Source: Rhodospirillaceae bacterium (GTDB lineage: Bacteria; Pseudomonadota; Alphaproteobacteria; Rhodospirillales; UBA2165). Taken from it: a stretch of DNA of 64,000 bases. Position numbers and translations under genes: made by a program. The notes below the pieces were generated by a model, which was not told the DNA's origin, did not search any database, and saw nothing but the letters and a program-made list of their open reading frames with translations. The stretch is taken from positions 21,615 through 85,614 of the forward strand of contig JABHAA010000043.1 of assembly GCA_018674495.1 (NCBI GenBank), read 5' to 3'. Below are positions 2,671 to 63,816 of this stretch, one piece after another (position 1 is the stretch's first letter; every line of letters starts with the position of its first letter).

Positions 2671-3825
2671 ATGCCAAGTGGCGAGCAGATATTCAACGCT
2701 GCCATCGAGCAGCAACTAGGCGGCAATCTCGGCGAGGCCGAGCGCTTGTACAAAATTTTTCTGGCCGATCATCCCGAACGAGACGACGCCCATTTCGGAT
2801 ACGGGCTTTTGTGCCTGGGCGACGGGCGCAAGGAAGACGCCGTCCGCAATTTCGAACGAGCTTTGTTCCTTAGCCCGGGCAACGTGGATTACTGGGCCAA
2901 TCTTGCCACCGCGAATTTCTCCATGGGCCGCATCGCCGACGCCCAATATGCCCATTTGCGGGCGCTCCGAATTGAGCCGGGCAACACCGAAATCAAAAAA
3001 TTGCGCGAGGATTTTGCCGCCCGGCCGCACATGTTCGGCGAAGGCGGTATCCAGAGCGCCCATGCGCCAGCGCGCCAGGTTTATATGTCGGCGGCGGTGG
3101 ATTTACTCAAAGACACGGCGGCGCCGCTACGCATTCTGGAGATCGGCTCCTATATGGGCGCCTCGCTCCAGACCTGGGCCGACGCCGCCGAGCGTCTTTA
3201 CGGCGCGGAAACGGAGATCCTCTGCATTGATCCCTGGGGTGATACTGGCGCCGCGCAATACCGGGATAAGGTGTGCGGCGCATTGGAATCCCAGGTTGCC
3301 TACGAGATATTCCGGCACAATGCGAAGCTTGCCGCCGCCCGGCCCAATATTTCGGTCACCGGAATGCGGGCCACCAGCCGCGAGGCCCTGCCCTTCCTGG
3401 GCGAGTTACGATTTCAACTCATCTATGTTGATGGCGGCCATTTTTACGACGACGCCCTGTTCGACATCACCGAATGCCACCGCCTGCTGGCCCCCGGCGG
3501 CATCATGTGCGGCGACGATTTGGAATTACAGGCGCACCAATGCGATTACGACTTCCTTCAGGCCAATAAAGCGGCCGATTTCATTGCCGGCGATGATGGC
3601 ACCGAATTTCATCCCGGCGTGACCCTGGCAGTGGCGGAATTTTTCGGCAAGGTTTCGGCCTTCAATGGCTTCTGGGCGATGCGCAAACTTGAAGGCGGCG
3701 CCTACGCCGCAGTTGACTTCAAGAATGCCAGGGGGCTGCTTCCAGTTCATTGGCCGGGGAACCTGCAAAGACTGGCACGGGATCAGATCGCCGAAAACCA
3801 ATCCCTCGATACCCTGGTGGCCTGA
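2671..3825 (+). CDS. TPR repeat protein fused to a class I SAM-dependent methyltransferase (Methyltransf_24/CmcI-like)
   Basis: 384 aa. The N-terminus has TPR-like repeats (AERLYKIFLADHPERDDAHFGYGLL, NFERALFLSPGNVDYWANLA). The C-terminus has MTase-fold motifs LRILEIGSYMGASL, CIDPW, LIYVDGGHFYDDALFD and LLAPGGIMCGDD. Confidence 0.7.
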   Translation: MPSGEQIFNAAIEQQLGGNLGEAERLYKIFLADHPERDDAHFGYGLLCLGDGRKEDAVRNFERALFLSPGNVDYWANLATANFSMGRIADAQYAHLRALRIEPGNTEIKKLREDFAARPHMFGEGGIQSAHAPARQVYMSAAVDLLKDTAAPLRILEIGSYMGASLQTWADAAERLYGAETEILCIDPWGDTGAAQYRDKVCGALESQVAYEIFRHNAKLAAARPNISVTGMRATSREALPFLGELRFQLIYVDGGHFYDDALFDITECHRLLAPGGIMCGDDLELQAHQCDYDFLQANKAADFIAGDDGTEFHPGVTLAVAEFFGKVSAFNGFWAMRKLEGGAYAAVDFKNARGLLPVHWPGNLQRLARDQIAENQSLDTLVA

Positions 3826-4932: not shown

Positions 4933-6564
4933 CTAGCCAGGCAGGCTGTAACCCTTGAAGTCTTCGCGAAGCTTGGTCTTCAAGATTTTGCCGGTGGCCG
5001 TGTGCGGCAGCTCATCAACGAATTCCACCGCATCGGGGATGCACATCTTTGCCACCTTGCCATCGAACAAGGCCAGGATATCATCGGGCGCCGGCGCTTT
5101 GCCTTTCGCCGGCACAATGACCAGCAACGGCCGCTCGCCCCATTTATCATGTTCAATGCCAATGACTGCGGCCTCCGCCACATCTGCATGGCCGACCGCC
5201 AGGTTTTCCAGCTCGATAGAGCTGATCCATTCGCCGCCCGACTTGATCACGTCCTTGGCCCGATCGACGATCTGCATGAAGCCTTCTGCGTCGATGGTGG
5301 ACACATCTCCGGTGCGCAAATAGCCGTCATCGTCGAAGGCGCCCTTGTCGGCGTCATCGTCCTCGAAATAGCCGCCGGTGATCCAGGGGCCGCGCACGCA
5401 CAGCTCGCCAAACGCATCGCCGTCATGGTCCAAGGGCTTGCCGCCGTCGCCTGCGATTTTCATATCGACACCATAGACCGGGCGTCCCTGTTTGACGCGG
5501 TATTGAATGGTTTCGGAAGGCGCTGCGCCGGTCATAGAATTTTTGATTCTGGCGACGGTGCCGAGCGGGCTCATCTCGGTCATGCCCCAGGCGTGGATGC
5601 ATTCGGCGCCAACGTCGTTTTCAAACGCCTCGATCATGGATTGGGGCACCGCCGAGCCGCCGACGATGACCCGCTCCAGCTTCGGCAGTTGCACGCCCGC
5701 TTCCTTCAAGTGTGCCAGCAGCATGGCCCAGATTGTGGGCACGCCGGCGCTCATGGTGGCGCCTTCATCGGCCAGCAGCTCGGCCACCGATTTGCCGTCC
5801 ATGCCGGCGCCCGGAAAGATCAACTTGGCCCCGGCCATGGCGCAGGCATAAGGCAATCCCCAGGCGTTGACGTGGAACATGGGAACCACCGGCAGCACCG
5901 CGTCCCGGGCCGAAACGGCGAGCCCGTCGGCGGCGCAGGTGGCCCAGGAATGTAATACTGTCGAGCGGTGCGAATACAAAACCCCCTTCGGATTGCCGGT
6001 GGTGCCGGACGAATAGCAAAGCGAGGACGCGGTGTTTTCGTCCAACGCCGGCCATGGGTAATCTTCTGCCTCGGCTCCGATGATATCTTCGAATGCGAGG
6101 GCGCCGGGGATTTGCGTTTCGGGCATGTGCTCGGCGTCGGTCATGATCACCACGCGGGCGCCCACCGGCAATCGGTCCACAAGTGCTTCCAGCACCGGCA
6201 CGAACGTCAAATCCACAAAGATCACCTTGTCGCCGGCATGGTTCAGGATATAGGCGATCTGATCGGCGAACAGGCGGGGATTGATGGTGTGGCAAATAGC
6301 GCCCATGCCGGAGACCGCGAAATACAATTCGAAATGCCGGTTGGTGTTCCAGGCCAATGTCGCCACCCTATCGCCCTCGCCAACACCAAGACCAGCCAGC
6401 GCGTGCGCCAGCTTGCCGATGCGCTTGTAGGAATCCGCATAAGTATAGCGGTGGATCGGCCCTTCGACCGAGCGGGTCACGATCTCCGTGGAGCCATGAA
6501 ATTTGACCGCAAATTCGATCAGCGAATTGATCGTAAGCTGGGTATCCATCATCTTGCCGAGCAT
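4933..6564 (-). CDS. Medium/long-chain acyl-CoA synthetase (AMP-forming adenylate-forming family)
   Basis: 543 aa. It carries the AMP-binding signature [12 protein letters not shown], then [32 protein letters not shown] and a C-terminal [10 protein letters not shown]. Confidence 0.9.
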
Positions 6565-56809: not shown

Positions 56810-57553
56810 TCATCGCAATATCAACGCAAGTCCGATCGCAACCAGCGACCATTGCGCGACCATGCTGTAAATTTTTTGCGAGGCGATTTCGAACAGCCGA
56901 GTGCCCGCCCAAGTTCCAATCATTGTCCCTGGTATGAGAACCGCGGCGCGAATAAATGTCTCGGCGCTGATACCGTTGCCGGCCAAGAGTGTAATGATCA
57001 ATATGATGCCCATCATCGAAGCGGTGACGGCAATGTTTGCCCTTTGCACCGCCACCGATTCCGGAGATGCGAGATAATAGAACACCATCAGAGGACCTCC
57101 ACTACCCGTAAACCCGTACACGCTGCCGGCTACGGCACCAACGGCGGCGGACGCGACCACGTTTCGGGGACCGGTGTACCGCCATCCCAAAATGAGGGCG
57201 AGACCGCACGCTGCTATTAATGCGCCAATAGCCGGTTTGACGGTCGAAGCATCTGCGACCAGCAAGGCCATTGCTGTAAGCGGTACGGTGACAACAACCG
57301 CAATGCAGAGGGGGATGGTTTCCGACCACTTGATATGATCGTACGTCTTTCGAAGCAGCATCGCCGAGGAGACGAGGCCGAGCACAGCCGAAATAGCGAT
57401 CGCTTCGAGCGGTCCATAGACAAACGTCAACAACGCGGCGTTGACCAATCCCGCAACAAAGCCGGTAAATCCCCGGGCAATGCCAGCTAGAATGACGATA
57501 AAATATGCGACGGCGAGGTCCGCAGATATGACGTGGATCAGAGCGTCTTGCAT
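56810..57553 (-). CDS. TauE/SafE-family (sulfite exporter-like) membrane protein
   Basis: 247 aa, about 7-8 TM segments, with a glycine-rich TauE-like pattern (GFTGSGGPLMVFY). Confidence 0.8.
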   Translation of the reverse strand: MQDALIHVISADLAVAYFIVILAGIARGFTGFVAGLVNAALLTFVYGPLEAIAISAVLGLVSSAMLLRKTYDHIKWSETIPLCIAVVVTVPLTAMALLVADASTVKPAIGALIAACGLALILGWRYTGPRNVVASAAVGAVAGSVYGFTGSGGPLMVFYYLASPESVAVQRANIAVTASMMGIILIITLLAGNGISAETFIRAAVLIPGTMIGTWAGTRLFEIASQKIYSMVAQWSLVAIGLALILR

Positions 57554-57756: not shown

Positions 57757-59337
57757 ATGAACGATCATACGGTCACGCTGGATACATCCACGTCTCCCGC
57801 CGGAATTACCTACGCCGATAATTTCAACGTGGCGGTGGCGTTCATCGACCGCCATATCAGCGAAGGCCGTGCTGACCGGGTCATCATCCGCGAACACGGC
57901 GGCGGCACGGTTACCTATGGGGAGTTGGCCGAAAATGTGGGCCGCGCCGGCAACGCGCTCACCGGCCTTGGGCTGGCCCCCGGCGAGCGTCTGCTGATGA
58001 TGGTCAAAGATGCGCCCGAATTTTTCTATGTATTTTGGGGCGCCATCAAGGCCGGCATTATCCCGGTGCCCTTGAACACGCTGCTCCGGGCCAAAGACTA
58101 CGCCTATATGATCGAAAATTCCGTTGCGGCCGGCATCGTCTATTCGGCAGAATTCGCCGGCGAAGTGGATCCGGCTATCGAAGCCGCCAAACACGCGCCG
58201 GCGCTGGTGATCGAAGCCGCCGGCGATGGCGGATTGCTCAGCAAAATGAAAGACGCCTCGCCGGAACTGGCGCCGGCGCCCGCCAAGCCGGGCGATGATT
58301 GTTTCTGGCTCTATTCGTCGGGCTCCACCGGCAATCCGAAGGGCGTTGTCCACGCCCATAAAGATATGGTGGTCACCAGCCAGTATTACGGGACGGAGAC
58401 CATCGGCCTCGGCGAGGGCGATGTGGTTTTTTCAGCGGCCAAGCTGTTCTTCGCCTACGGCCTCGGCAACGCCATGACCTTTCCATTATGGTCAGGCGCG
58501 GAGGCGGTCCTGTTCGAAGGTGCGCCGGCGCCAGACGTCGTGCACGCGGTGATCGAAGAATACAAACCCAGCGTCTATTTCGGCGTCCCCACCCTTTATG
58601 CGGCGCAAATGCGCGCCTTCGATGAGCGCAAACCCGATCTTTCCTCGGTCCGATTGTTCGTATCGGCGGGCGAGGCCTTGCCGCCGGACCTACTGCGCCG
58701 TTGGATCGATGCCACTGGCCTGCCAATCCTCGACAGCATCGGTACCACCGAAATTCTGCATATATTCCTGGCCAACCGGGAAGACGATTTCAAGCCCGGC
58801 TCCAGCGGCAAGACGGTGCCCGGCTACGAAGGGCGCATCGTCGGCGAAGACGGCAACGACGTGCCCGACGGCGAAACCGGCAGCCTGATGATCCGAGGCG
58901 ATTCGCTATTGAAGCTCTATTGGCGCAACCCGGAAAAGACCAACGAAGCGTTGCAAGACGGCTGGATGTATACCGGTGATACATATTACCGAGACGAGGA
59001 CGGATTTTTCTTCTGCTGCGGGCGCTCAGACGACATGCTTAAAGTCGGCGGCATCTGGTGCTCGCCGGTGGAGATCGAGGCGAAGTTGGTGGAGCATCCG
59101 AAAGTACTGGAAGCCGCCGTCGTTGGCCGTGCCGACAACGAAGAGCTGATCAAGCCGGAAGCCTTTATCGTGCTCAACGATGCGTCTGATGCCTCGGACG
59201 CGCTGTCAGCGGAATTGCTGGAGCATTGCAAAAGCGGATTGGCGCGCTACAAATACCCGCGCTGGTTCAATTTCGTCGATGACCTGCCAAAAACAGCGAC
59301 GGGAAAAATCCAGCGTTTCAGGCTCCGCGACGGTTAA
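57757..59337 (+). CDS. Benzoate-CoA ligase family aromatic acid-CoA ligase
   Basis: I moved the start to the ATG at 57757, which has an AAGGAGAGG ribosome-binding site. Motifs are YSSGSTGNPKGVVHAH, YTGDTYYRDEDGFFFCCGRSDDMLKVGGIWCSPVEIE and LPKTATGKIQRF. Confidence 0.85.
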   Translation: MNDHTVTLDTSTSPAGITYADNFNVAVAFIDRHISEGRADRVIIREHGGGTVTYGELAENVGRAGNALTGLGLAPGERLLMMVKDAPEFFYVFWGAIKAGIIPVPLNTLLRAKDYAYMIENSVAAGIVYSAEFAGEVDPAIEAAKHAPALVIEAAGDGGLLSKMKDASPELAPAPAKPGDDCFWLYSSGSTGNPKGVVHAHKDMVVTSQYYGTETIGLGEGDVVFSAAKLFFAYGLGNAMTFPLWSGAEAVLFEGAPAPDVVHAVIEEYKPSVYFGVPTLYAAQMRAFDERKPDLSSVRLFVSAGEALPPDLLRRWIDATGLPILDSIGTTEILHIFLANREDDFKPGSSGKTVPGYEGRIVGEDGNDVPDGETGSLMIRGDSLLKLYWRNPEKTNEALQDGWMYTGDTYYRDEDGFFFCCGRSDDMLKVGGIWCSPVEIEAKLVEHPKVLEAAVVGRADNEELIKPEAFIVLNDASDASDALSAELLEHCKSGLARYKYPRWFNFVDDLPKTATGKIQRFRLRDG

Positions 59338-59362
59338 ATATTTACGACTATTTCCTGGGACA

Positions 59363-59627
59363 AGTGACCTATTTCATCCATGTTGTACCTCTACGATCGT
59401 TTTTCCCGTTTCCTCGGTAGGAGGATGGGCGCCGGCGATGCGGCACATCGGCAAGCCCTTCCGACACCCCGAGGGAACGGGAAAAACGACCCAGAGGGCG
59501 ACGCTGCAAGGCTCCCGGTCGTTGTCGCGCGCAGCTTGTGGTGGATTGGCACCACGGCGCGGCGCGCTCCTAGCCGAAAACCTTGCAGCGCCGTCGTAGT
59601 GGCACAACATGGATGAAATAGGTCACT
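59363..59627 (+). repeat. 265-bp highly structured palindromic element closed by perfect 24-bp inverted repeats (MITE-like element or structured RNA)
   Basis: AGTGACCTATTTCATCCATGTTGT (59363..59386) is the exact reverse complement of 59604..59627. There are two internal helices. One pairs 59397..59417 with 59469..59489: 21 bp with a single pair that is U-G on the plus strand. The other pairs 59502..59511 with 59581..59590: 10 bp, perfect. The element ends 3 nt before the ATG at 59631. Confidence 0.7.
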
Positions 59628-59630
59628 AGC

Positions 59631-60554
59631 ATGCAAGAAAAATTGATGGACCTGAAGGAGGCGGTCGCCTCGCTAGTCAGTGACGGCGACAGCATCGTGC
59701 TCGGCGCGGCACTGGAAAACGCCATCCCCTTCGCCGCCACCCACGAGCTGATCCGCCAGGGCTTTACCGGTCTCAACATGATTGCGCCAATTTCCGACAT
59801 GTCCACCGACATGCTGATCGGCGCCGGCTGCTGCAACGAAATTACCGGCGCCTGGGTCGGCAACGTGTCCGCCGGGCTCGGTCATAATTACCGGCGGGCC
59901 ACCGAGAAAGGCATCCCGCACCGGGTGAAGGTCAACGATTACTCCAACTTCACCCTCGGCATGGCATTATTTGGCGGCGCCTACGGGCTGCCCTATATCG
60001 CCGTGAAGTCCCTGCTTGGATCAGACATTCCCAAGTCCAATCCACTGTTGAAAGTGACCGACAACCCGTTCACAGAAGGCGAAGACCCGGTTGTTCTGGT
60101 GCCAGCGCTGAAACCGGATGTGGCATTCCTGTCCATGCAGCGCGCCGACCGTTTCGGCAACGCCCATTATTGGGGTTCCTACGGCTTAACCCAGGAATCC
60201 TCCATCGCGGCGGAAAAAATCATCGTGCTGGCGGACGAGATTGTCGAGCCCGAAGTGATCGCGTCGGACCCCAGCCGCGTGGTTATCCCGGGCTTTGGCG
60301 TCAATGCCGTCTGCCACATTCCCGCCGCGTGCCATCCATCGCCGCTGATCGGCTGCTGGACGCGGGACAATGAATTTTTTCACGAATATCACAAGCTGAC
60401 TCGCGACCCGGAAGGCTTTGAGGCCTGGATCAAGGAGTGGGTGTTGGATATTCCCGATCACGCCGCCTACCGCGCCAAACTGGGCGAGCGGCTGGAACAG
60501 TTCCGCATCCGCGGCAAAGCGTTATCGGCGCCTGCCAACTACGCGGTAGAGTAA
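59631..60554 (+). CDS. Family I CoA-transferase subunit A (glutaconate CoA-transferase GctA-like)
   Basis: 307 aa with LKEAVASLVSDGDSIVLGAALENAIPFAA and ADRFGNAHYWG. It is followed by a subunit-B gene. Confidence 0.85.
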   Translation: MQEKLMDLKEAVASLVSDGDSIVLGAALENAIPFAATHELIRQGFTGLNMIAPISDMSTDMLIGAGCCNEITGAWVGNVSAGLGHNYRRATEKGIPHRVKVNDYSNFTLGMALFGGAYGLPYIAVKSLLGSDIPKSNPLLKVTDNPFTEGEDPVVLVPALKPDVAFLSMQRADRFGNAHYWGSYGLTQESSIAAEKIIVLADEIVEPEVIASDPSRVVIPGFGVNAVCHIPAACHPSPLIGCWTRDNEFFHEYHKLTRDPEGFEAWIKEWVLDIPDHAAYRAKLGERLEQFRIRGKALSAPANYAVE

Positions 60555-60559
60555 AGCCA

Positions 60560-61321
60560 ATGAGTTTAGATTATTCGACCCAGGAATTGATGATCATCGC
60601 GTCCGCGCGCGAGATTAAGGACAACGAGCGCATCTTTGTCGGCATGCGCCTGCCGATCACCGCCTATGGCGTTGCGCGCCTGACCCATGCGCCGAACGCA
60701 GTCGGCCTGTTCGAAAGCGGCATCGCCCGTTACGAGCCGGCGGACGGTATGCTCTATACCATGTGCGACGCCCCCAACCAGCTGGGCGCCGCCTGGACCT
60801 GCGGGCTGATCCAGATCATGGGCATGCTGTCAGGCGGTCGCGTCCATGCGGGGTTCATCGGCGGCGCCGAGATCGATAAATTCGGCAACATCAACACGTC
60901 GTACATCGGCGGCATAGAAAACCCCAAGGTAAAGCTGCCGGGCTCCGGCGGCGCCGCCGATATCGCCGCCATGTCGCAACGGCTGATCGCCATCATGAAC
61001 CACGAAAAACACCGGCTGGTGGAAAAGGTCGAATTTATCACCTCGCCAGGGTTCCTGGATGGCGGCGATGCCAGAAAGCGCGCTGGATTACCGGGCGCTG
61101 GGCCGTCGGCGGTGATCACCGACCGGGCCATCTTGCGCCCGCACGGTCCCACCAACGAATTGCATCTCTCCACCATCCATCCCGGCCATAGCCAAGCGGA
61201 GATATTGGAGAACACCGGCTGGGATTTGAAAATCGCGCCAGACCTAAGCGAAACACCGGAACCCTCATCCGCCGAGATGGACGCTCTCCATCAAATCGAC
61301 AAAGACGGCTATTGGCGCTAG
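60560..61321 (+). CDS. Family I CoA-transferase subunit B (GctB-like)
   Basis: I moved the start to the ATG at 60560 (MSLDYSTQELMIIASAREI...). Motifs are GLFESG, GGAEIDKFGNINTS and LPGSGGAADIA. Confidence 0.85.
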   Translation: MSLDYSTQELMIIASAREIKDNERIFVGMRLPITAYGVARLTHAPNAVGLFESGIARYEPADGMLYTMCDAPNQLGAAWTCGLIQIMGMLSGGRVHAGFIGGAEIDKFGNINTSYIGGIENPKVKLPGSGGAADIAAMSQRLIAIMNHEKHRLVEKVEFITSPGFLDGGDARKRAGLPGAGPSAVITDRAILRPHGPTNELHLSTIHPGHSQAEILENTGWDLKIAPDLSETPEPSSAEMDALHQIDKDGYWR

Positions 61322-61337: not shown

Positions 61338-62105
61338 CTAGGAAATCGCGCTGCGTACGCCGGGGCCGTTCAAATAGGTGAAGCCGGCAGTGCGGGCGAC
61401 TTTGTCGAGTGTTTCGTTAGCAATGCCGTGCAAGTAGGTATGCAGACGCCCGGCCCCGGCAGAGGCGCAAAAGGTCTGCAAGTGCGGCTTGATCTGCTCC
61501 GCCGGCCAAGCCTTGTCCATCAGATGGAACGAGACGCCTTGGAAATTGCAATTCGTGAATATGGTAAAGTTGGTCCAGCCAGGGCGCGGCCGGGCGATGT
61601 AATGGCGGCAGAATGGAAACACTGTGATCGCAAGATTATCGAGATATTCGAGGCTGAGCTTTTCCGGGAAATTGAACAGCTCGAACACCAGTTTTCCTTC
61701 GGAATTGTTCTGAATTTCTCGGCATTTCTCGGCAAACGCATTCGCAAAGCTGGACAGGCCGAGACCCAGCACATTGATCGGCACAATCACCGTGGGCGAT
61801 TTCCCGTCCACCGAAACCTTGTTGATAAAACGCTCCACAAGGCTGAGCATTTTGCTCAAATTCGATGTCATCAGGGCTTGATCAAGAATACGCTCCGTCG
61901 ATCCGGCGACCAACAATGCGTCGCCGGACATAGCGCCGCCGGTGCCTTCGATTTCAGGCATGCAATAATACAGATTTTCCGCCGGCGCACCGGATACCAC
62001 CACCGGCCAGAACTTGGCGGTCAGATCGGCAGGGACAGTATTTGTCTGGGACAAGGGCTCGTTCACCGGTAATTTCCAAATTCGATTTTGGCGCAACGCT
62101 TGCAT
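61338..62105 (-). CDS. Hypothetical protein, possibly a degenerate EAL-like fold
   Basis: 255 aa. The spacing of IVPINV, LVFELFNFPE, GVSFHLMDK and YLHGIANETLDKVARTAGFTYLNGPG loosely parallels EAL-domain blocks, but the catalytic residues are replaced. The assignment is weak. Confidence 0.45.
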   Translation of the reverse strand: MQALRQNRIWKLPVNEPLSQTNTVPADLTAKFWPVVVSGAPAENLYYCMPEIEGTGGAMSGDALLVAGSTERILDQALMTSNLSKMLSLVERFINKVSVDGKSPTVIVPINVLGLGLSSFANAFAEKCREIQNNSEGKLVFELFNFPEKLSLEYLDNLAITVFPFCRHYIARPRPGWTNFTIFTNCNFQGVSFHLMDKAWPAEQIKPHLQTFCASAGAGRLHTYLHGIANETLDKVARTAGFTYLNGPGVRSAIS

Positions 62106-62138: not shown

Positions 62139-63335
62139 CTAAATGAATGACGCCACGGCGGCGGCGGCGGCGCCCATCAGGGCCAAGGCTATACCGCTCA
62201 TCATATAGGGCCGCGAAGGCCCGCCGAACAATGCTACCAGCTTGGCGATCCCCGCGCCGAAATACAGCAATGCCAACAATAAAGGCGGCAAAAACGGCAA
62301 ATGCACCAGCCAGAATAGGGGCCCCAAGGCTGGCCCGCCGATGCGCGGATCAAAGCCGAATAGAACCTGCCAGGCCAATTCCAGGTTAGCGCTGGCGCCC
62401 GGGAATGCACCGCCGAGGGGGCCGAGCCCAAGAGCCAGCACCGCGATGATCAGCAATCCGATCAAAAGCCGGCCAGCCGTGGCCAATCGACCGGCATGCG
62501 GGCGCGCCGCCTCCAAGGTGATTGCCGCCGCCAATCCGGTGGCCAGAAAGCTGGCCAGCATCATGCGCCAATTAGAATGCACGGGCAGATCGGCTACCGC
62601 CAGATGGCCGGCCAGAAAGGCACCGTAGGTGGCCAAATACACGAACGGGAGGGATGCCGCGAAAACCGCGAATTGGCGATCAAGGACGGATTTCAAAGGC
62701 CCGGCTTGGAGCCGCCGCGCCCCCAGCCGCGCCGCCAGAACGGCGGACTGGCAGACGAAATACAATAACGGCGCCGCCAGGATGGAGCCGAGCACGGCGT
62801 GCCCAATGGGCATGTTGAGCAAGCGCCCGGTGAGCGAGGTGAACACATAACCCGGAACGAAAAAGAAGACGGCGGCGAATATGGCGACCGAAATAAAGGC
62901 GGTTAGTTTTTGCGCTCGGCGCATCTCGCCAAGGATCATGAGAAGGACATAGGCGGCGAATATGGCAAGCACCACCAGAAACAAAAACGCCGAGCCGCCG
63001 CGTAGCATATTGACCAAGGCGGCCAGTGGAATGACCACCAGGGTCATCGCCATGAACACGTTGCTGGCCAGCATATTGTCTTCCGATTGCCCGAACCAGT
63101 GTTCGATGAAAGCATCGCTGCGCACCGCCAATTGCCGGGCCACCAGACCGGGTAGGAGCCGCCAGCCGGTGTCCGCCAATCCGGCCCAGCCCTTGCGAAG
63201 CGCAGCTCTAAGGCCACCGCCAGCGTCCGCCGTCTGTCCTAAATCGAGAAACACCAGGAACAGCCCGACGGCGGCAAGGATGATGGCGGTTACGCTGAAC
63301 AGTCCATCGACAAATTCTATGCCCGGAATATTCAT
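62139..63335 (-). CDS. Polytopic membrane protein of unknown function
   Basis: I moved the start to the ATG at 63335, which has a GAGGAG ribosome-binding site. It is about 398 aa with at least 9 hydrophobic segments. Confidence 0.6.
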   Translation of the reverse strand: MNIPGIEFVDGLFSVTAIILAAVGLFLVFLDLGQTADAGGGLRAALRKGWAGLADTGWRLLPGLVARQLAVRSDAFIEHWFGQSEDNMLASNVFMAMTLVVIPLAALVNMLRGGSAFLFLVVLAIFAAYVLLMILGEMRRAQKLTAFISVAIFAAVFFFVPGYVFTSLTGRLLNMPIGHAVLGSILAAPLLYFVCQSAVLAARLGARRLQAGPLKSVLDRQFAVFAASLPFVYLATYGAFLAGHLAVADLPVHSNWRMMLASFLATGLAAAITLEAARPHAGRLATAGRLLIGLLIIAVLALGLGPLGGAFPGASANLELAWQVLFGFDPRIGGPALGPLFWLVHLPFLPPLLLALLYFGAGIAKLVALFGGPSRPYMMSGIALALMGAAAAAVASFI

Positions 63336-63360
63336 GGCTCCTCGGATTGCCTCTTTCTGA

Positions 63361-63816
63361 TCAGCGCGTAAATTCGATTTCGCCGCCCGGCAATAAATAA
63401 AGAACAATCGCAGCGCCATCGGTTACCGTCGGATTGTGCGCCGTGCCGGGGCCGTACACCACCCAGCCCTGGCCGCTGCCGTCAAACTTGGCATCGCCTT
63501 CCACTGGCATGACCAGATCCACCTCGCCCTTGGGATGGCTGTGGTGCGGGCCGACCACATCATTCATGGCCACCACATCGACGCTGAAGCCGTCCAGATC
63601 CTTGATGACGCGGCCAAACTTGATGCCGCCATATTCCTGATCGCACATCCAGCCCGCTTCGATGGCCGCATCGCAGGCCGCGCGGATGGCCCCGATTGTC
63701 TCGCCATCGGCGGGAAATGCATCATCCAAAAAGGCGCCCAAATCGGCGTCCAGCGCTCTTCCCTTAATGGCGCCGGTCACTTCCGCAACCAGCGCCTGGA
63801 ACCCAACCTTATCCAT
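63361..63816 (-). CDS. Small cupin-like protein (DUF4863-like)
   Basis: 151 aa with the His-rich metal-type motif GPHHSHPKGEVDLVMP, then GTAHNP. Confidence 0.55.
   Translation of the reverse strand: MDKVGFQALVAEVTGAIKGRALDADLGAFLDDAFPADGETIGAIRAACDAAIEAGWMCDQEYGGIKFGRVIKDLDGFSVDVVAMNDVVGPHHSHPKGEVDLVMPVEGDAKFDGSGQGWVVYGPGTAHNPTVTDGAAIVLYLLPGGEIEFTR

What the first reader, a model, noticed from the sequence alone, without database searches (positions are those of the whole stretch)
59363..59627. 265-bp multi-helix palindromic element with perfect 24-bp terminal inverted repeats between the aromatic-CoA ligase and CoA-transferase genes
Seen:
- 59363..59386 and 59604..59627 are exact reverse complements.
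- Inside are two long helices, which gives a three-way-junction-like fold. The first pairs 59397..59417 with 59469..59489 (21 bp). The second pairs 59502..59511 with 59581..59590 (10 bp) and has further nested pairing, including GTGGTG/CACCAC.
- The only imperfect pair in the 21-bp helix is U-G on the plus strand and would be C-A on the minus strand. This hints weakly at selection on a plus-strand RNA.
- The element ends 3 nt before the ATG at 59631, which leaves no room for a normal Shine-Dalgarno sequence.
- Four overlapping 78-81-aa ORFs on both strands are artefacts of the symmetry.

Inference: this is either a MITE-like insertion (I found no clear target-site duplication) or a structured cis-regulatory or terminator RNA that controls read-through from the ligase into the CoA-transferase genes.
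Basis: partly seen in the sequence, partly recalled or inferred. Interest (0 to 1): 0.6.

Follow-up and report, generated by a model that had tools for sequence, protein, structure and literature searches.

The report
Miniature transposon inserted between two genes
The 265-bp palindromic element is one copy of a large, apparently undescribed family of miniature non-coding transposons (MITEs) from marine Alphaproteobacteria that recently landed in a CTAG site 4 nt upstream of the CoA-transferase gene; it is not a riboswitch-like RNA specific to this locus.

Summary
The 24-bp terminal inverted repeats are exact and extend to 34 bp at 94%. They enclose two ~95-nt hairpins (fold z about -14).

The element is a mobile insertion, not a locus-specific RNA:
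- Orthologous loci at 96%, 87% and 77% protein identity have a 33-41-nt spacer instead of 293 nt. Their sequence (GGGA[A/C]TAGC-ATG) shows the element entered at the TA of a CTAG.
- An ORF-translation probe and then a motif scan found at least 148 homologous copies on 119 metagenome contigs, in unrelated contexts.
- All 41 independent full-length insertions are intergenic and show no orientation bias.
- Their flanks give a YTAR target. TA lies on both sides of a GTG...CAC core in 24 of 41 and on at least one side in all 41.

The helices covary (28 pairs with double changes), but both strands fold equally well, so there is no evidence for a strand-specific RNA. Rfam has no match.

One unusual feature: the GC-rich two-hairpin interior is more conserved (89%) than the arms (72%). 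The same interior also occurs in a sister family with different arms and a direct 3-bp TWA duplication.

No partner transposase was found. In this locus the element is predicted to bury the -15..-4 region of the downstream gene in a stem.

The parts
59363..59627 (.). It is one copy of a ~266-bp MITE family.
   Evidence: The family profile matches it end to end (nhmmer model 1-266, E = 1e-77). It is absent from orthologous loci.
59364..59626 (.). Transposon core under the TA-duplication reading (GTGACC...GGTCAC, 263 bp)
   Evidence: Filled versus empty site: GGGAC-AA-[core]-TA-GC against GGGAC-TA-GC in L016. The family junction statistics agree.
59362..59363 (.). Left flanking dinucleotide AA: a degenerate copy of the duplicated target TA
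   Evidence: Relatives have T at the corresponding position. The left junction reads CAAG, against CTAG in 22 of 41 family copies.
59627..59628 (.). Right flanking dinucleotide TA: the intact copy of the target TA within C-TA-G
   Evidence: the right junction CTAG occurs in 25 of 41 copies.
59363..59396 (.). Left terminal arm. It is AT-rich and subfamily-specific (window type).
   Evidence: 34 nt, 94% complementary to 59594-59627. The arms covary between subfamilies.
59594..59627 (.). Right terminal arm
59397..59489 (.). Interior hairpin 1 (21-bp basal stem, invariant apical CGATG...CATCG stem), GC-rich and conserved across the family
   Evidence: Compensatory changes occur at alignment pairs 52-113, 63-101, 65-98 and 66-97.
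59490..59498 (.). Central linker CCCAGAGGG. It forms a 3-bp mini-hairpin at the element's pseudo-dyad.
   Evidence: pairs 131-140, 132-139 and 133-138, nearly invariant.
59499..59593 (.). Interior hairpin 2. It weakly resembles the reverse complement of hairpin 1.
   Evidence: compensatory changes at pairs 144-232, 145-231, 150-226 and 183-194. HP1 versus rc(HP2) gives z = 3.5.
59357..59360 (+). GGGA, the weak Shine-Dalgarno-like motif. In the empty L010 orthologue it lies 6-9 nt upstream of the ATG. Here it is displaced about 270 nt upstream.
   Evidence: Alignment of filled and empty sites. This is an inference from position only.
57757..59337 (+). Upstream gene: AMP-binding acyl/aryl-CoA ligase (526 aa as called in public assemblies)
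   Evidence: Pfam AMP-binding and AMP-binding_C. Gene calls are in L002-L009.
59631..60554 (+). Downstream gene: CoA-transferase subunit A (307 aa). Its start region -27..-4 lies in the right arm of the element.
   Evidence: Pfam CoA_trans. The orthologues use the same start. Accessibility was computed.
60560..61321 (+). CoA-transferase subunit B (253 aa)
   Evidence: Pfam CoA_trans.

Best explanation
[quoted passage not shown] It belongs to a large family of ~266-bp elements found in marine, largely deep-sea, alphaproteobacterial metagenomes.

Shown:
- It inserted in the lineage of this window after that lineage split from relatives with 88-92% nucleotide identity.
- It entered at the TA of a CTAG-like site 4 nt upstream of the CoA-transferase start codon.
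- Homologous copies sit at YTAR sites in many unrelated intergenic regions.

Inferred:
- A DDE transposase supplied in trans binds the two AT-rich terminal arms. It excises the element and integrates it by staggered attack at TA, duplicating TA.
- The enzyme is of the IS630/Tc1-mariner type, or of an IS5-group type that makes 2-3-bp TA/TWA duplications.
- The element's terminal G...C regenerates CTAG, and therefore any TAG stop codon, on both sides. CTAG is also rare inside genes. Together these would keep insertions intergenic and mostly harmless.
- The GC-rich two-hairpin interior is a DNA-level nested palindrome with weak twofold symmetry. Its pairing is maintained on both strands equally. 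This fits structure-dependent maintenance, or a role in transposition, rather than a strand-specific RNA.

Local consequences, inferred and untested:
- The insertion moved the native GGGA motif about 270 nt away from the ATG.
- If the two genes are co-transcribed, positions -27..-4 of the CoA-transferase mRNA sit in a 24-34-bp duplex.
- That should lower or uncouple translation of the transferase. The long perfect stem would also be a plausible RNase III substrate, as reported for Correia elements.
For: Empty sites:
- The spacer is 33, 41 and 35 nt in orthologous loci at 96%, 87% and 77% identity, against 293 nt here.
- Removing 265 bp restores GGGAC(A/T)AGC-ATG.
- The same filled allele, with an identical 293-nt spacer, occurs in 8 independent assemblies that are 99.9% identical to the window.

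Dispersed copies:
- 25 pseudo-proteins translated from relatives were found.
- Full-length homologues at 80-90% identity lie in other contexts.
- These loci hold 148 copies in 720 kb. 25 loci have 2-3 copies, many copies sit at contig ends, and host GC ranges from 47 to 73%.

Junctions at 41 independent sites:
- C at -2 in 32 of 41, T at -1 in 31, A at +1 in 36, G at +2 in 30.
- TA lies on both sides of the GTG..CAC core in 24 of 41 and on at least one side in 41 of 41.
- No direct repeat occurs outside the element (0-3 of 41).

Other evidence:
- The sister family has a non-palindromic direct 3-bp TWA duplication, so relatives do integrate by staggered cuts.
- All 41 insertions are intergenic with no orientation bias (8, 8, 8 and 6 across the four gene configurations).
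- There is no strand asymmetry: alifold gives -163.0 against -163.8 kcal/mol, and 17 of 34 copies fold better on each strand.
- Rfam has no match.
- IS630-family elements insert at TA, prefer CTAG, and sometimes leave imperfect flanks such as AA or a single A (PMC2170065).
- P(unpaired) at -15..-4 is 0.01 in the filled allele, 0.63-0.72 in the empty orthologues and 0.45 after removing the element in silico.
Against: - No transposase-bearing parent with matching arms was found. I checked the window, the 720 kb of family loci and PLSDB plasmids.
- The window-type arm sequence was found nowhere except at this locus. Those collections evidently lack the window's own contigs, so this negative is weak. 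Copy number in the host genome is unknown.
- Because TA and CTAG are palindromes, a TA duplication cannot be told from blunt insertion into CT^AG by sequence alone.
- The outer T/A flanks are imperfect in 17 of 39 copies, against about 4 expected from arm decay.
- Contrary to the textbook MITE pattern, the interior is more conserved than the arms (89% against 72%). Local interior hairpins also show compensatory changes. A purely selfish deletion derivative of an IS does not predict either.
Confidence: 0.85

Rival explanations
1. A locus-specific structured cis-regulatory RNA (riboswitch-like leader, attenuator or terminator) that evolved to control read-through from the ligase into the CoA-transferase genes.
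For: - The fold is very stable (z = -14).
- It lies between two probably co-transcribed genes and abuts the start codon.
- The helices covary across homologues.
- It is predicted to occlude the -15..-4 region.
Against: - It is absent from the same locus in relatives at 96%, 87% and 77% identity.
- Homologues sit in unrelated intergenic regions in every gene configuration.
- Both strands fold equally well, and the minus strand of this copy folds better.
- There is no U-tract terminator or promoter consensus.
- Rfam has no match.
Confidence: 0.03
2. The conserved two-hairpin interior is the functional unit: a structured module useful either to the host or to transposition itself. It has been captured by, or has acquired, different transposon ends. 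On this view the element is a mobile carrier of a functional DNA or RNA structure, not a decaying IS remnant.
For: - The interior is 89% identical and 70% GC, against arms at 72% identical and 47% GC.
- Compensatory double changes occur inside both local hairpins: 66-97 GC>CG in 9 copies, 145-231 GC>CG in 8, and 183-194 GC>AU in 14.
- The apical stems are invariant.
- The same interior is found with at least four arm types and two duplication lengths, TA and TWA.
Against: - Neither folding nor orientation shows a strand preference, which argues against a transcribed functional RNA.
- Covariation counts are inflated by shared ancestry within subfamilies.
- Quasi-palindrome-templated correction could keep the hairpins paired without selection.
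- Chimeric MITEs with swapped ends can arise by recombination.
- No bound protein or conserved loop motif such as GANTC was identified.
Confidence: 0.1
3. A single-strand-hairpin transposon remnant of the IS200/IS605 (PATE) or REP/RAYT type, mobilised as ssDNA by a HUH tyrosine transposase that recognises the hairpins.
For: - The element has prominent conserved sub-terminal hairpins.
- The stems covary, as expected if structure rather than sequence is recognised.
- There is no unambiguous non-palindromic duplication in the main family.
Against: - It has long terminal inverted repeats and overall twofold symmetry, whereas IS200/IS605 ends are asymmetric and lack such repeats.
- There is no strand asymmetry.
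- The sister family makes a genuine direct 3-bp duplication, which HUH transposition does not.
- The hairpins are ~95 nt, far larger than the ~20-30-nt hairpins of those families (general knowledge).
Confidence: 0.02

Closest known systems
Correia elements (CREE/NEMIS) of Neisseria
   Same: - Non-coding and intergenic, with many copies.
- ~24-26-bp terminal inverted repeats with TA at the termini and a TA target duplication.
- Filled and empty sites exist.
- Transcripts fold into long stem-loops, reported to be RNase III substrates that affect neighbouring mRNAs (PMC2229807).
   Different: - Correia elements are 107-155 bp, AT-rich and restricted to Neisseria. Some carry an IHF site and promoters.
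- This family is ~266 bp with a 70% GC interior made of two independent ~95-nt hairpins.
- Its hosts are marine Alphaproteobacteria.
- No promoter consensus was found.
- Sequence relatedness was not tested directly.
RUP of Streptococcus pneumoniae and other IS630-mobilised MITEs (for example cyanobacterial Nezha)
   Same: - Insertion at TA with a 2-bp duplication.
- Presumed mobilisation in trans by an IS630/Tc1-mariner-type transposase.
- Occasional insertion into IS transposase genes. P0139 is an IS481-type transposase N-terminus interrupted by a family copy (PMC2229807).
   Different: - For RUP the link rests on similarity of its repeats to IS630-Spn1. No parent IS was found here.
- RUP is 107 bp and folds as a simple end-to-end stem-loop.
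CIR (CcrM-associated intergenic repeats) of Caulobacter and Brucella
   Same: - Alphaproteobacterial intergenic repeats.
- The two halves fold independently into two long arms joined by a linker.
- TA at the termini, and conservation across species (PMC2229807).
   Different: - CIRs are ~110 bp and lack terminal inverted repeats.
- They are defined by a conserved GANTC methylation site exposed in a loop.
- Here there are 24-34-bp terminal repeats.
- GANTC is not conserved. It appears only in the arms of 7 subfamily-B copies.
- The CIR sequences themselves could not be obtained for comparison.
Stowaway (TA, Tc1/mariner) and Tourist (TWA, PIF/Harbinger-IS5) MITEs of eukaryotes
   Same: The main family behaves like Stowaway (TA). 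The sister family behaves like Tourist (a direct TWA duplication).
   Different: - Here the two end types share one homologous interior.
- In eukaryotes the two classes are unrelated in sequence.
- The hosts here are bacterial.

Membership tests
MITE (non-autonomous DNA transposon) | Terminal inverted repeats | tested here: met
   24 bp exact and 34 bp at 94%. Every full-length family copy has complementary arms, with a mean of 1.3 mismatches in the outer 22 bp.
MITE (non-autonomous DNA transposon) | Small size and no coding capacity | tested here: met
   The element is 265 bp. Its ORFs of 46-139 aa overlap on both strands. The pseudo-proteins called from copies have no Pfam domain and start and end at different points.
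MITE (non-autonomous DNA transposon) | Multiple dispersed copies in unrelated genomic contexts | tested here: met
   At least 148 copies on 119 metagenome contigs, with 41 independent full-length insertion sites. Copy number within the window's own genome was not measurable. The 64-kb window holds a single copy.
MITE (non-autonomous DNA transposon) | Presence/absence polymorphism with precise boundaries (filled versus empty sites) | tested here: met
   Window and L002-L009 are filled. L010-L015, L016-L021 and L022 are empty. The difference is exactly 265 bp at GGGAC(T)AGC.
MITE (non-autonomous DNA transposon) | Target-site duplication | tested here: inconclusive
   TA flanks both sides of the core in 24 of 41 copies and at least one side in 41 of 41. 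In the window the flanks read AA and TA. Palindromy makes a TA duplication indistinguishable from blunt insertion at CT^AG. The sister family shows an unambiguous direct TWA duplication.
MITE (non-autonomous DNA transposon) | A cognate autonomous IS with matching terminal repeats | tested here: inconclusive
   None was found in the window, the family loci or PLSDB. Whole host genomes and ISfinder could not be searched.
IS630/Tc1-mariner-mobilised elements | Insertion at TA, with a preference for CTAG, and a 2-bp TA duplication | tested here: met
   The junction half-sites are CTAG in 47, TTAG in 16 and CCAG in 8 of 82. The empty site in L016 contains CTAG. The literature basis is PMC2170065. 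The same caveat as for the duplication applies.
IS630/Tc1-mariner-mobilised elements | Arms similar to the ends of an IS630-family IS that encodes a DDE (DD34-35E/D) transposase | not testable with these tools
   No DNA scan of genome collections remained, and ISfinder is not available.
IS5-group (IS427/ISL2/IS1031; Tourist-like) mobilised elements | A 3-bp TNA/TWA (or 4-bp YTAR) direct duplication | tested here: not met
   In the main family, which includes the window copy, the 3-bp model holds in 0 of 41 and the 4-bp CTAG model in 13 of 41, against 24 of 41 for TA. The feature is met only by the sister family. Whether some IS5-group enzymes make 2-bp TA duplications rests on my recollection of ISfinder and was not verified here.
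CIR repeats of Alphaproteobacteria | A conserved GANTC (CcrM) site in a hairpin loop, size ~110 bp, no terminal inverted repeats | tested here: not met
   GANTC is present only in the arms of 7 of 34 copies. The element is 266 bp and has 24-34-bp terminal repeats.
Cis-regulatory RNA (riboswitch, attenuator or intrinsic terminator) | Conservation at orthologous positions upstream of the regulated gene | tested here: not met
   It is absent from all three tiers of orthologous loci.
Cis-regulatory RNA (riboswitch, attenuator or intrinsic terminator) | Strand-specific structure and orientation relative to the regulated gene | tested here: not met
   The alifold energy is equal on both strands, and 17 of 34 copies favour each strand. 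Orientation relative to neighbouring genes is unbiased. There is no U-tract.
Cis-regulatory RNA (riboswitch, attenuator or intrinsic terminator) | A match to a curated RNA family | tested here: not met
   Rfam 15 has no hit on the window element at E <= 10 other than noise. It has none on six other loci that hold main-family copies of subfamilies A and B and sister-family copies, at E <= 0.1.
IS200/IS605-derived PATE or REP/RAYT elements | Asymmetric ends with small sub-terminal hairpins, no terminal inverted repeats, no duplication, strand-specific insertion 3' of a fixed tetranucleotide | tested here: not met
   The element has long terminal inverted repeats and twofold symmetry, a symmetric YTAR target, and a sister family with a direct 3-bp duplication.

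The most novel reading that the evidence does not exclude
The conserved, GC-rich, covarying two-hairpin interior is a selected structural module, not junk. For example, it might juxtapose the two ends for the transposase, or act as a host-tolerated or host-useful DNA/RNA structure. On this reading it has repeatedly exchanged its outer ~25-30-bp arms and so moved between transposase systems that make different duplications: TA in the main family with at least three arm types, and TWA in the sister family. That would make it a modular 'cargo plus swappable ends' miniature transposon, a design not described for bacterial MITEs as far as I could find.
Probability: 0.2. Interest if true: 0.6.

Novelty: new member of a known kind. 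Interest (0 to 1): 0.35.

Why it matters
For annotating this window, the result removes a candidate riboswitch or terminator and replaces it with a recent transposon insertion. It also explains the spurious small ORFs, which public pipelines have called as proteins in this copy (P0121) and in relatives.

For the biology of the locus, it marks a natural filled/empty pair of alleles in abundant marine Rhodospirillales. A 265-bp hairpin separates a CoA ligase from its CoA-transferase and buries the transferase's initiation region. That is a ready-made test of how a MITE alters operon expression.

For mobile-DNA research, it adds a large family that breaks metagenome assemblies in deep-sea Alphaproteobacteria. 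The family has an unusual conservation pattern: conserved interior, divergent but complementary arms, and two duplication types. If real, that bears on how MITEs switch transposases.

Tried and rejected
1. Rfam on the window region and on six other loci with family copies: nothing.
2. PLSDB plasmids, searched with the element, the flanking operon, a subfamily-A copy, a sister copy and the arms alone: no match, or chance matches at E about 5.
3. Exact 20-mer of the window arm:
   - The species-representative genomes gave one lone 23-nt match inside an SNF2 helicase gene of a Firmicutes MAG. It has no partner arm and I treat it as chance.
   - The metagenome collection gave none.
   - A 16-mer scan of the viral collection gave six lone chance hits.
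4. Word-indexed protein search with the element ORF: one relative only. The exhaustive HMMER search was what opened up the family.
5. Search for an autonomous parent: all unproductive.
   - Arms more than 600 bp apart turned out to be pairs of separate copies.
   - Orphan type-B ends in L031, L084 and L088 have no partner within 3.5 kb.
   - Clustering of ORFs of at least 200 aa found no recurrent transposase.
6. Plus-strand RNA hypothesis from G.U asymmetry: rejected when both strands were treated symmetrically.
7. A 4-bp CTAG duplication, a 3-bp duplication, or any duplication outside AGTG...CACT: rejected by junction counts.
8. CIR membership: rejected on GANTC, size and terminal repeats. 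The original CIR paper was not available.
9. Source names for the pseudo-proteins: none, since all are metagenomic.
10. Interior motif in viral contigs: none.
Full report
**1. The observation**

- 59363-59386 and 59604-59627 are exact reverse complements. There were 2 matches against 0 expected in 100 shuffles. Complementarity continues to 34 nt at 94%.
- Inside lie a 21-bp helix (59397-59417 / 59469-59489, one T.G pair) and a second long helix (59499-59518 / 59574-59593, 80%) with nested GTGGTG/CACCAC.
- The plus strand folds as a terminal stem, two ~95-nt hairpins and a 3-bp central mini-hairpin. Energy is -166.1 kcal/mol and z = -14.0.
- The minus strand folds at -174.9 kcal/mol, z = -14.7. 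This is a DNA-level palindrome, and in this copy the minus strand is the more stable one.
- The element ends 3 nt before the ATG at 59631.
- Overlapping ORFs of 78, 78 and 81 aa lie on both strands.

**2. The element is an insertion**

The flanking genes are an AMP-binding CoA ligase and the two subunits of a CoA-transferase. Looking up the exact CoA-transferase protein found the same locus in many marine assemblies. Eight contigs carry an identical 293-nt spacer and are about 99.9% identical to the window over 10 kb. They are one population and carry no covariation information.

Orthologues named Rhodospirillales or Alphaproteobacteria by their sources were then fetched.
- In six contigs at 96% protein identity the ligase-to-transferase spacer is 33 nt.
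- In six contigs at 87% it is 41 nt.
- In one contig at 77% it is 35 nt.

Aligned:
- L010 reads ...CCCCTGGGAATAGC|ATG.
- L016 reads ...CCTGGGACTAGC...
- The window reads ...CCTGGGAC-AA-[GTGACC...GGTCAC]-TA-GC|ATG.

Exactly 265 bp have been added at the TA of a CTAG-like site 4 nt upstream of the start codon. This happened after the window's lineage split from relatives that are 88-92% identical in the flanking genes.

**3. It belongs to a large dispersed family**

Direct searches with the arm sequence failed.
- Species-representative genomes gave one lone chance-like hit.
- The metagenome collection gave none.
- Viral contigs gave chance hits only.
- Plasmids gave none.

I then used the element's spurious ORF as a probe, because gene callers often call ORFs inside intergenic repeats.
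- An exhaustive HMMER search found 25 other pseudo-proteins that share a long core at 52-73% identity.
- The DNA behind two of them (L029, L030) is a full-length homologue, 80-90% identical, in unrelated contexts.
- These loci hold 148 copies in 720 kb. 25 loci have two or three copies, many copies are truncated at contig ends, and host GC ranges from 47 to 73%.
- 27 of the 80 listed contigs come from one oxic deep-sea sediment metagenome rich in deep-branching Alphaproteobacteria (LKGT01; PMC4959193).
- The 64-kb window itself holds only this copy.

**4. Insertion signature**

There are 41 independent full-length insertion sites.
- C at -2 in 32, T at -1 in 31, A at +1 in 36, G at +2 in 30.
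- Read symmetrically, the 82 junction half-sites are CTAG (47), TTAG (16) and CCAG (8), so the target is YTAR.
- TA flanks both sides of a GTG...CAC core in 24 of 41 and at least one side in all 41.
- A 4-bp CTAG duplication holds in only 13 of 41.
- No direct repeat of 1-4 bp exists outside AGTG...CACT (0-3 of 41).

This matches IS630/Tc1-mariner elements, which insert at TA, prefer CTAG and duplicate TA. In vitro they occasionally leave AA or a single A on one side (PMC2170065). That covers the window's AA...TA.

Two caveats apply.
- TA and CTAG are palindromes, so a TA duplication and a blunt insertion at CT^AG give the same sequence.
- The outer T/A bases are altered far more often than the inner ones (15 against 3). 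17 of 39 copies are imperfect, against about 4 expected from arm decay. Ten of those 17 are CTAG->CCAG/CTGG transitions. I cannot explain this; very-short-patch-type repair is a guess.

**5. A sister family**

A second class of hits matches only the interior of the model.
- These are 261-bp elements with the same two-hairpin interior but different arms (TACCAAGGAGCGCTGATCATGACC...).
- They are flanked by direct, non-palindromic 3-bp repeats, TTA/TTA or TAA/TAA.
- This is an unambiguous target-site duplication. It shows that relatives of the window element integrate by staggered cuts.
- It also means the same interior travels on at least four arm types (A, B, window type, sister) and with two duplication lengths.

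**6. RNA or DNA?**

I aligned 34 independent copies (A1). The consensus structure has 99 pairs, 28 of them with double compensatory changes.
- Most are in the terminal stem.
- Some are in the local hairpins: 66-97 GC>CG in 9 copies, 145-231 GC>CG in 8, 183-194 GC>AU in 14.

Watson-Crick covariation cannot separate an RNA from a palindromic DNA, so I treated both strands symmetrically.
- Alifold energy is -163.0 (+) against -163.8 (-) kcal/mol.
- Pairs with frequent G.U number 10 against 7.
- 17 of 34 copies fold better on each strand.

Further points:
- Neighbouring genes are convergent (8), divergent (8), tandem co-oriented (6) or tandem anti-oriented (8). No credible ORF spans any insertion.
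- The simple scans found no promoter-like or terminator-like site in the element.
- Rfam has no match for this copy or for copies in six other loci.
- Hairpin 1 resembles the reverse complement of hairpin 2 (z = 3.5, against 1.1 for the direct comparison). The whole element therefore has weak twofold symmetry.

Everything points to a symmetric DNA transposon and not to a strand-specific RNA.

**7. What is unusual**

Textbook MITEs conserve their terminal repeats, which are the transposase binding sites, and let the interior drift. Here the pattern is reversed.
- The arms are AT-rich (47% GC) and 72% identical between copies. Window against the rest is 61%.
- The interior is 70% GC and 89% identical. 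Window against the rest is 84%.
- Yet each copy's two arms remain complementary, with a mean of 1.3 mismatches in 22 bp.

I regard arm exchange or co-evolution with different transposases as the likeliest cause, combined with structure-dependent maintenance of the interior. A selected function for the interior is not excluded; see the novel case.

**8. Mechanism and local consequence**

Best explanation: a transposase supplied in trans recognises the arms and cuts and pastes the element into YTAR sites.
- The terminal G...C regenerates CTAG, and any TAG stop codon, on both sides. Many neighbouring ORFs end exactly at the junction.
- That regeneration, together with the general rarity of CTAG inside genes, would help keep insertions intergenic.
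- The transposase family is inferred, not shown. IS630-type is favoured by TA/CTAG. An IS5-group enzyme is possible given the TWA sister family.
- No parent element was found in the window, the family loci or plasmids.

In this locus the insertion moved the weak GGGA motif about 270 nt away from the ATG.
- Positions -15..-4 have P(unpaired) of 0.01 in the filled allele. The value is 0.63 and 0.72 in the empty orthologues and 0.45 after in-silico excision.
- The start codon region stays about 0.6 unpaired.
- The orthologues lack a strong Shine-Dalgarno anyway. So 'no room for an SD' is less anomalous than it looked.
- Reduced or uncoupled translation, and RNase III cleavage of the long stem as reported for Correia elements (PMC2229807), are reasonable untested predictions.

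**9. Comparison with known systems**

It works like Correia and RUP-type bacterial MITEs. It is not a member of either.
- Size, composition, host and architecture all differ.
- Sequence relatedness was not tested directly.

It shares the two-arm architecture and the alphaproteobacterial host range of CIR repeats. It fails their defining features, which are a conserved GANTC site, a size of ~110 bp and no terminal repeats. I found no description of this family in the searchable literature.

**10. Verdict**

It is a recent insertion of a miniature transposon from a large, apparently undescribed family. That makes it a new member of a known kind, with one unusual property worth a specialist's look.

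Noticed in passing
L039 9606-9866, L053 4250-4510, L059 710-970, L062 400-660, L076 4482-4743, L077 7034-7294, L092 3500-3760, L113 8776-9035, L129 4576-4836: A sister family of 261-bp elements. It has the same two-hairpin interior but different arms (TACCAAGG...), and it is flanked by direct 3-bp TWA duplications. In L113 a second copy abuts the first and shares the TTA.
   Followed up: partly
L029 about 5035-5090; also L046, L065, L069, L073, L116, L118, L127, L130, L145: Many family copies carry an extra ~50-nt very GC-rich nested hairpin inserted in the apical loop of hairpin 1. In the profile search these copies split into model 1-115 plus 101-266.
   Followed up: no
41 family junctions (for example L030, L137, L061, L114 on the left; L072, L084, L039, L043 on the right): Junction decay is dominated by CTAG->CCAG/CTGG transitions (10 of 17 imperfect copies), and the outer T/A is altered 15 times against 3 for the inner A/T. 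This may reflect very-short-patch-type repair acting on CTAG, but that was not tested.
   Followed up: partly
L001 1291-1313 (Firmicutes bacterium UBA5509, DIOR01000004.1): A lone 23-nt exact identity to the window element's arm lies inside a 992-aa SNF2/ResIII helicase ORF. There is no partner arm and no interior. I treat it as chance, though 23 nt is slightly longer than expected for a 20-mer scan.
   Followed up: yes
pseudo-protein P0139 (JGI contig, 123 aa): An IS481-type transposase N-terminus (LZ_Tnp_IS481, HTH_29) runs straight into an element copy. So a family member has inserted into an IS transposase gene, as reported for RUP and Correia.
   Followed up: partly
L010-L015 153-1946 (-), against window 56810-57553 (-) and the adjacent DUF2846 ORF: In the 96%-identity relatives the genes upstream of the ligase (TauE, DUF2846) are replaced by a 597-aa TIR_2/AAA_16 protein, a defence-like STAND/TIR architecture. 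This is a small variable island next to the operon.
   Followed up: no
window 61338-62105 (-) and 62139-63419 (-): Two ORFs (255 and 426 aa) have no Pfam hit. They are conserved in synteny next to a PnbB-like gene and a Fer2/molybdopterin hydroxylase pair in the 96% and 87% relatives, and in part in the 77% relative. They may be uncharacterised members of this aromatic-acid pathway.
   Followed up: no
L031 (minus-strand position 3193), L084 (1021), L088 (845): Orphan type-B arms (AGTGTCCTGTCCCAGAG...) are followed by sequence that is not the hairpin interior. There is no partner arm within 3.5 kb. They may be truncated copies or the ends of something larger.
   Followed up: partly
L022 4926-5603 (-): In the 77%-identity relative a HAD-hydrolase gene on the opposite strand sits between the two CoA-transferase subunit genes, which are adjacent in the window.
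   Followed up: no
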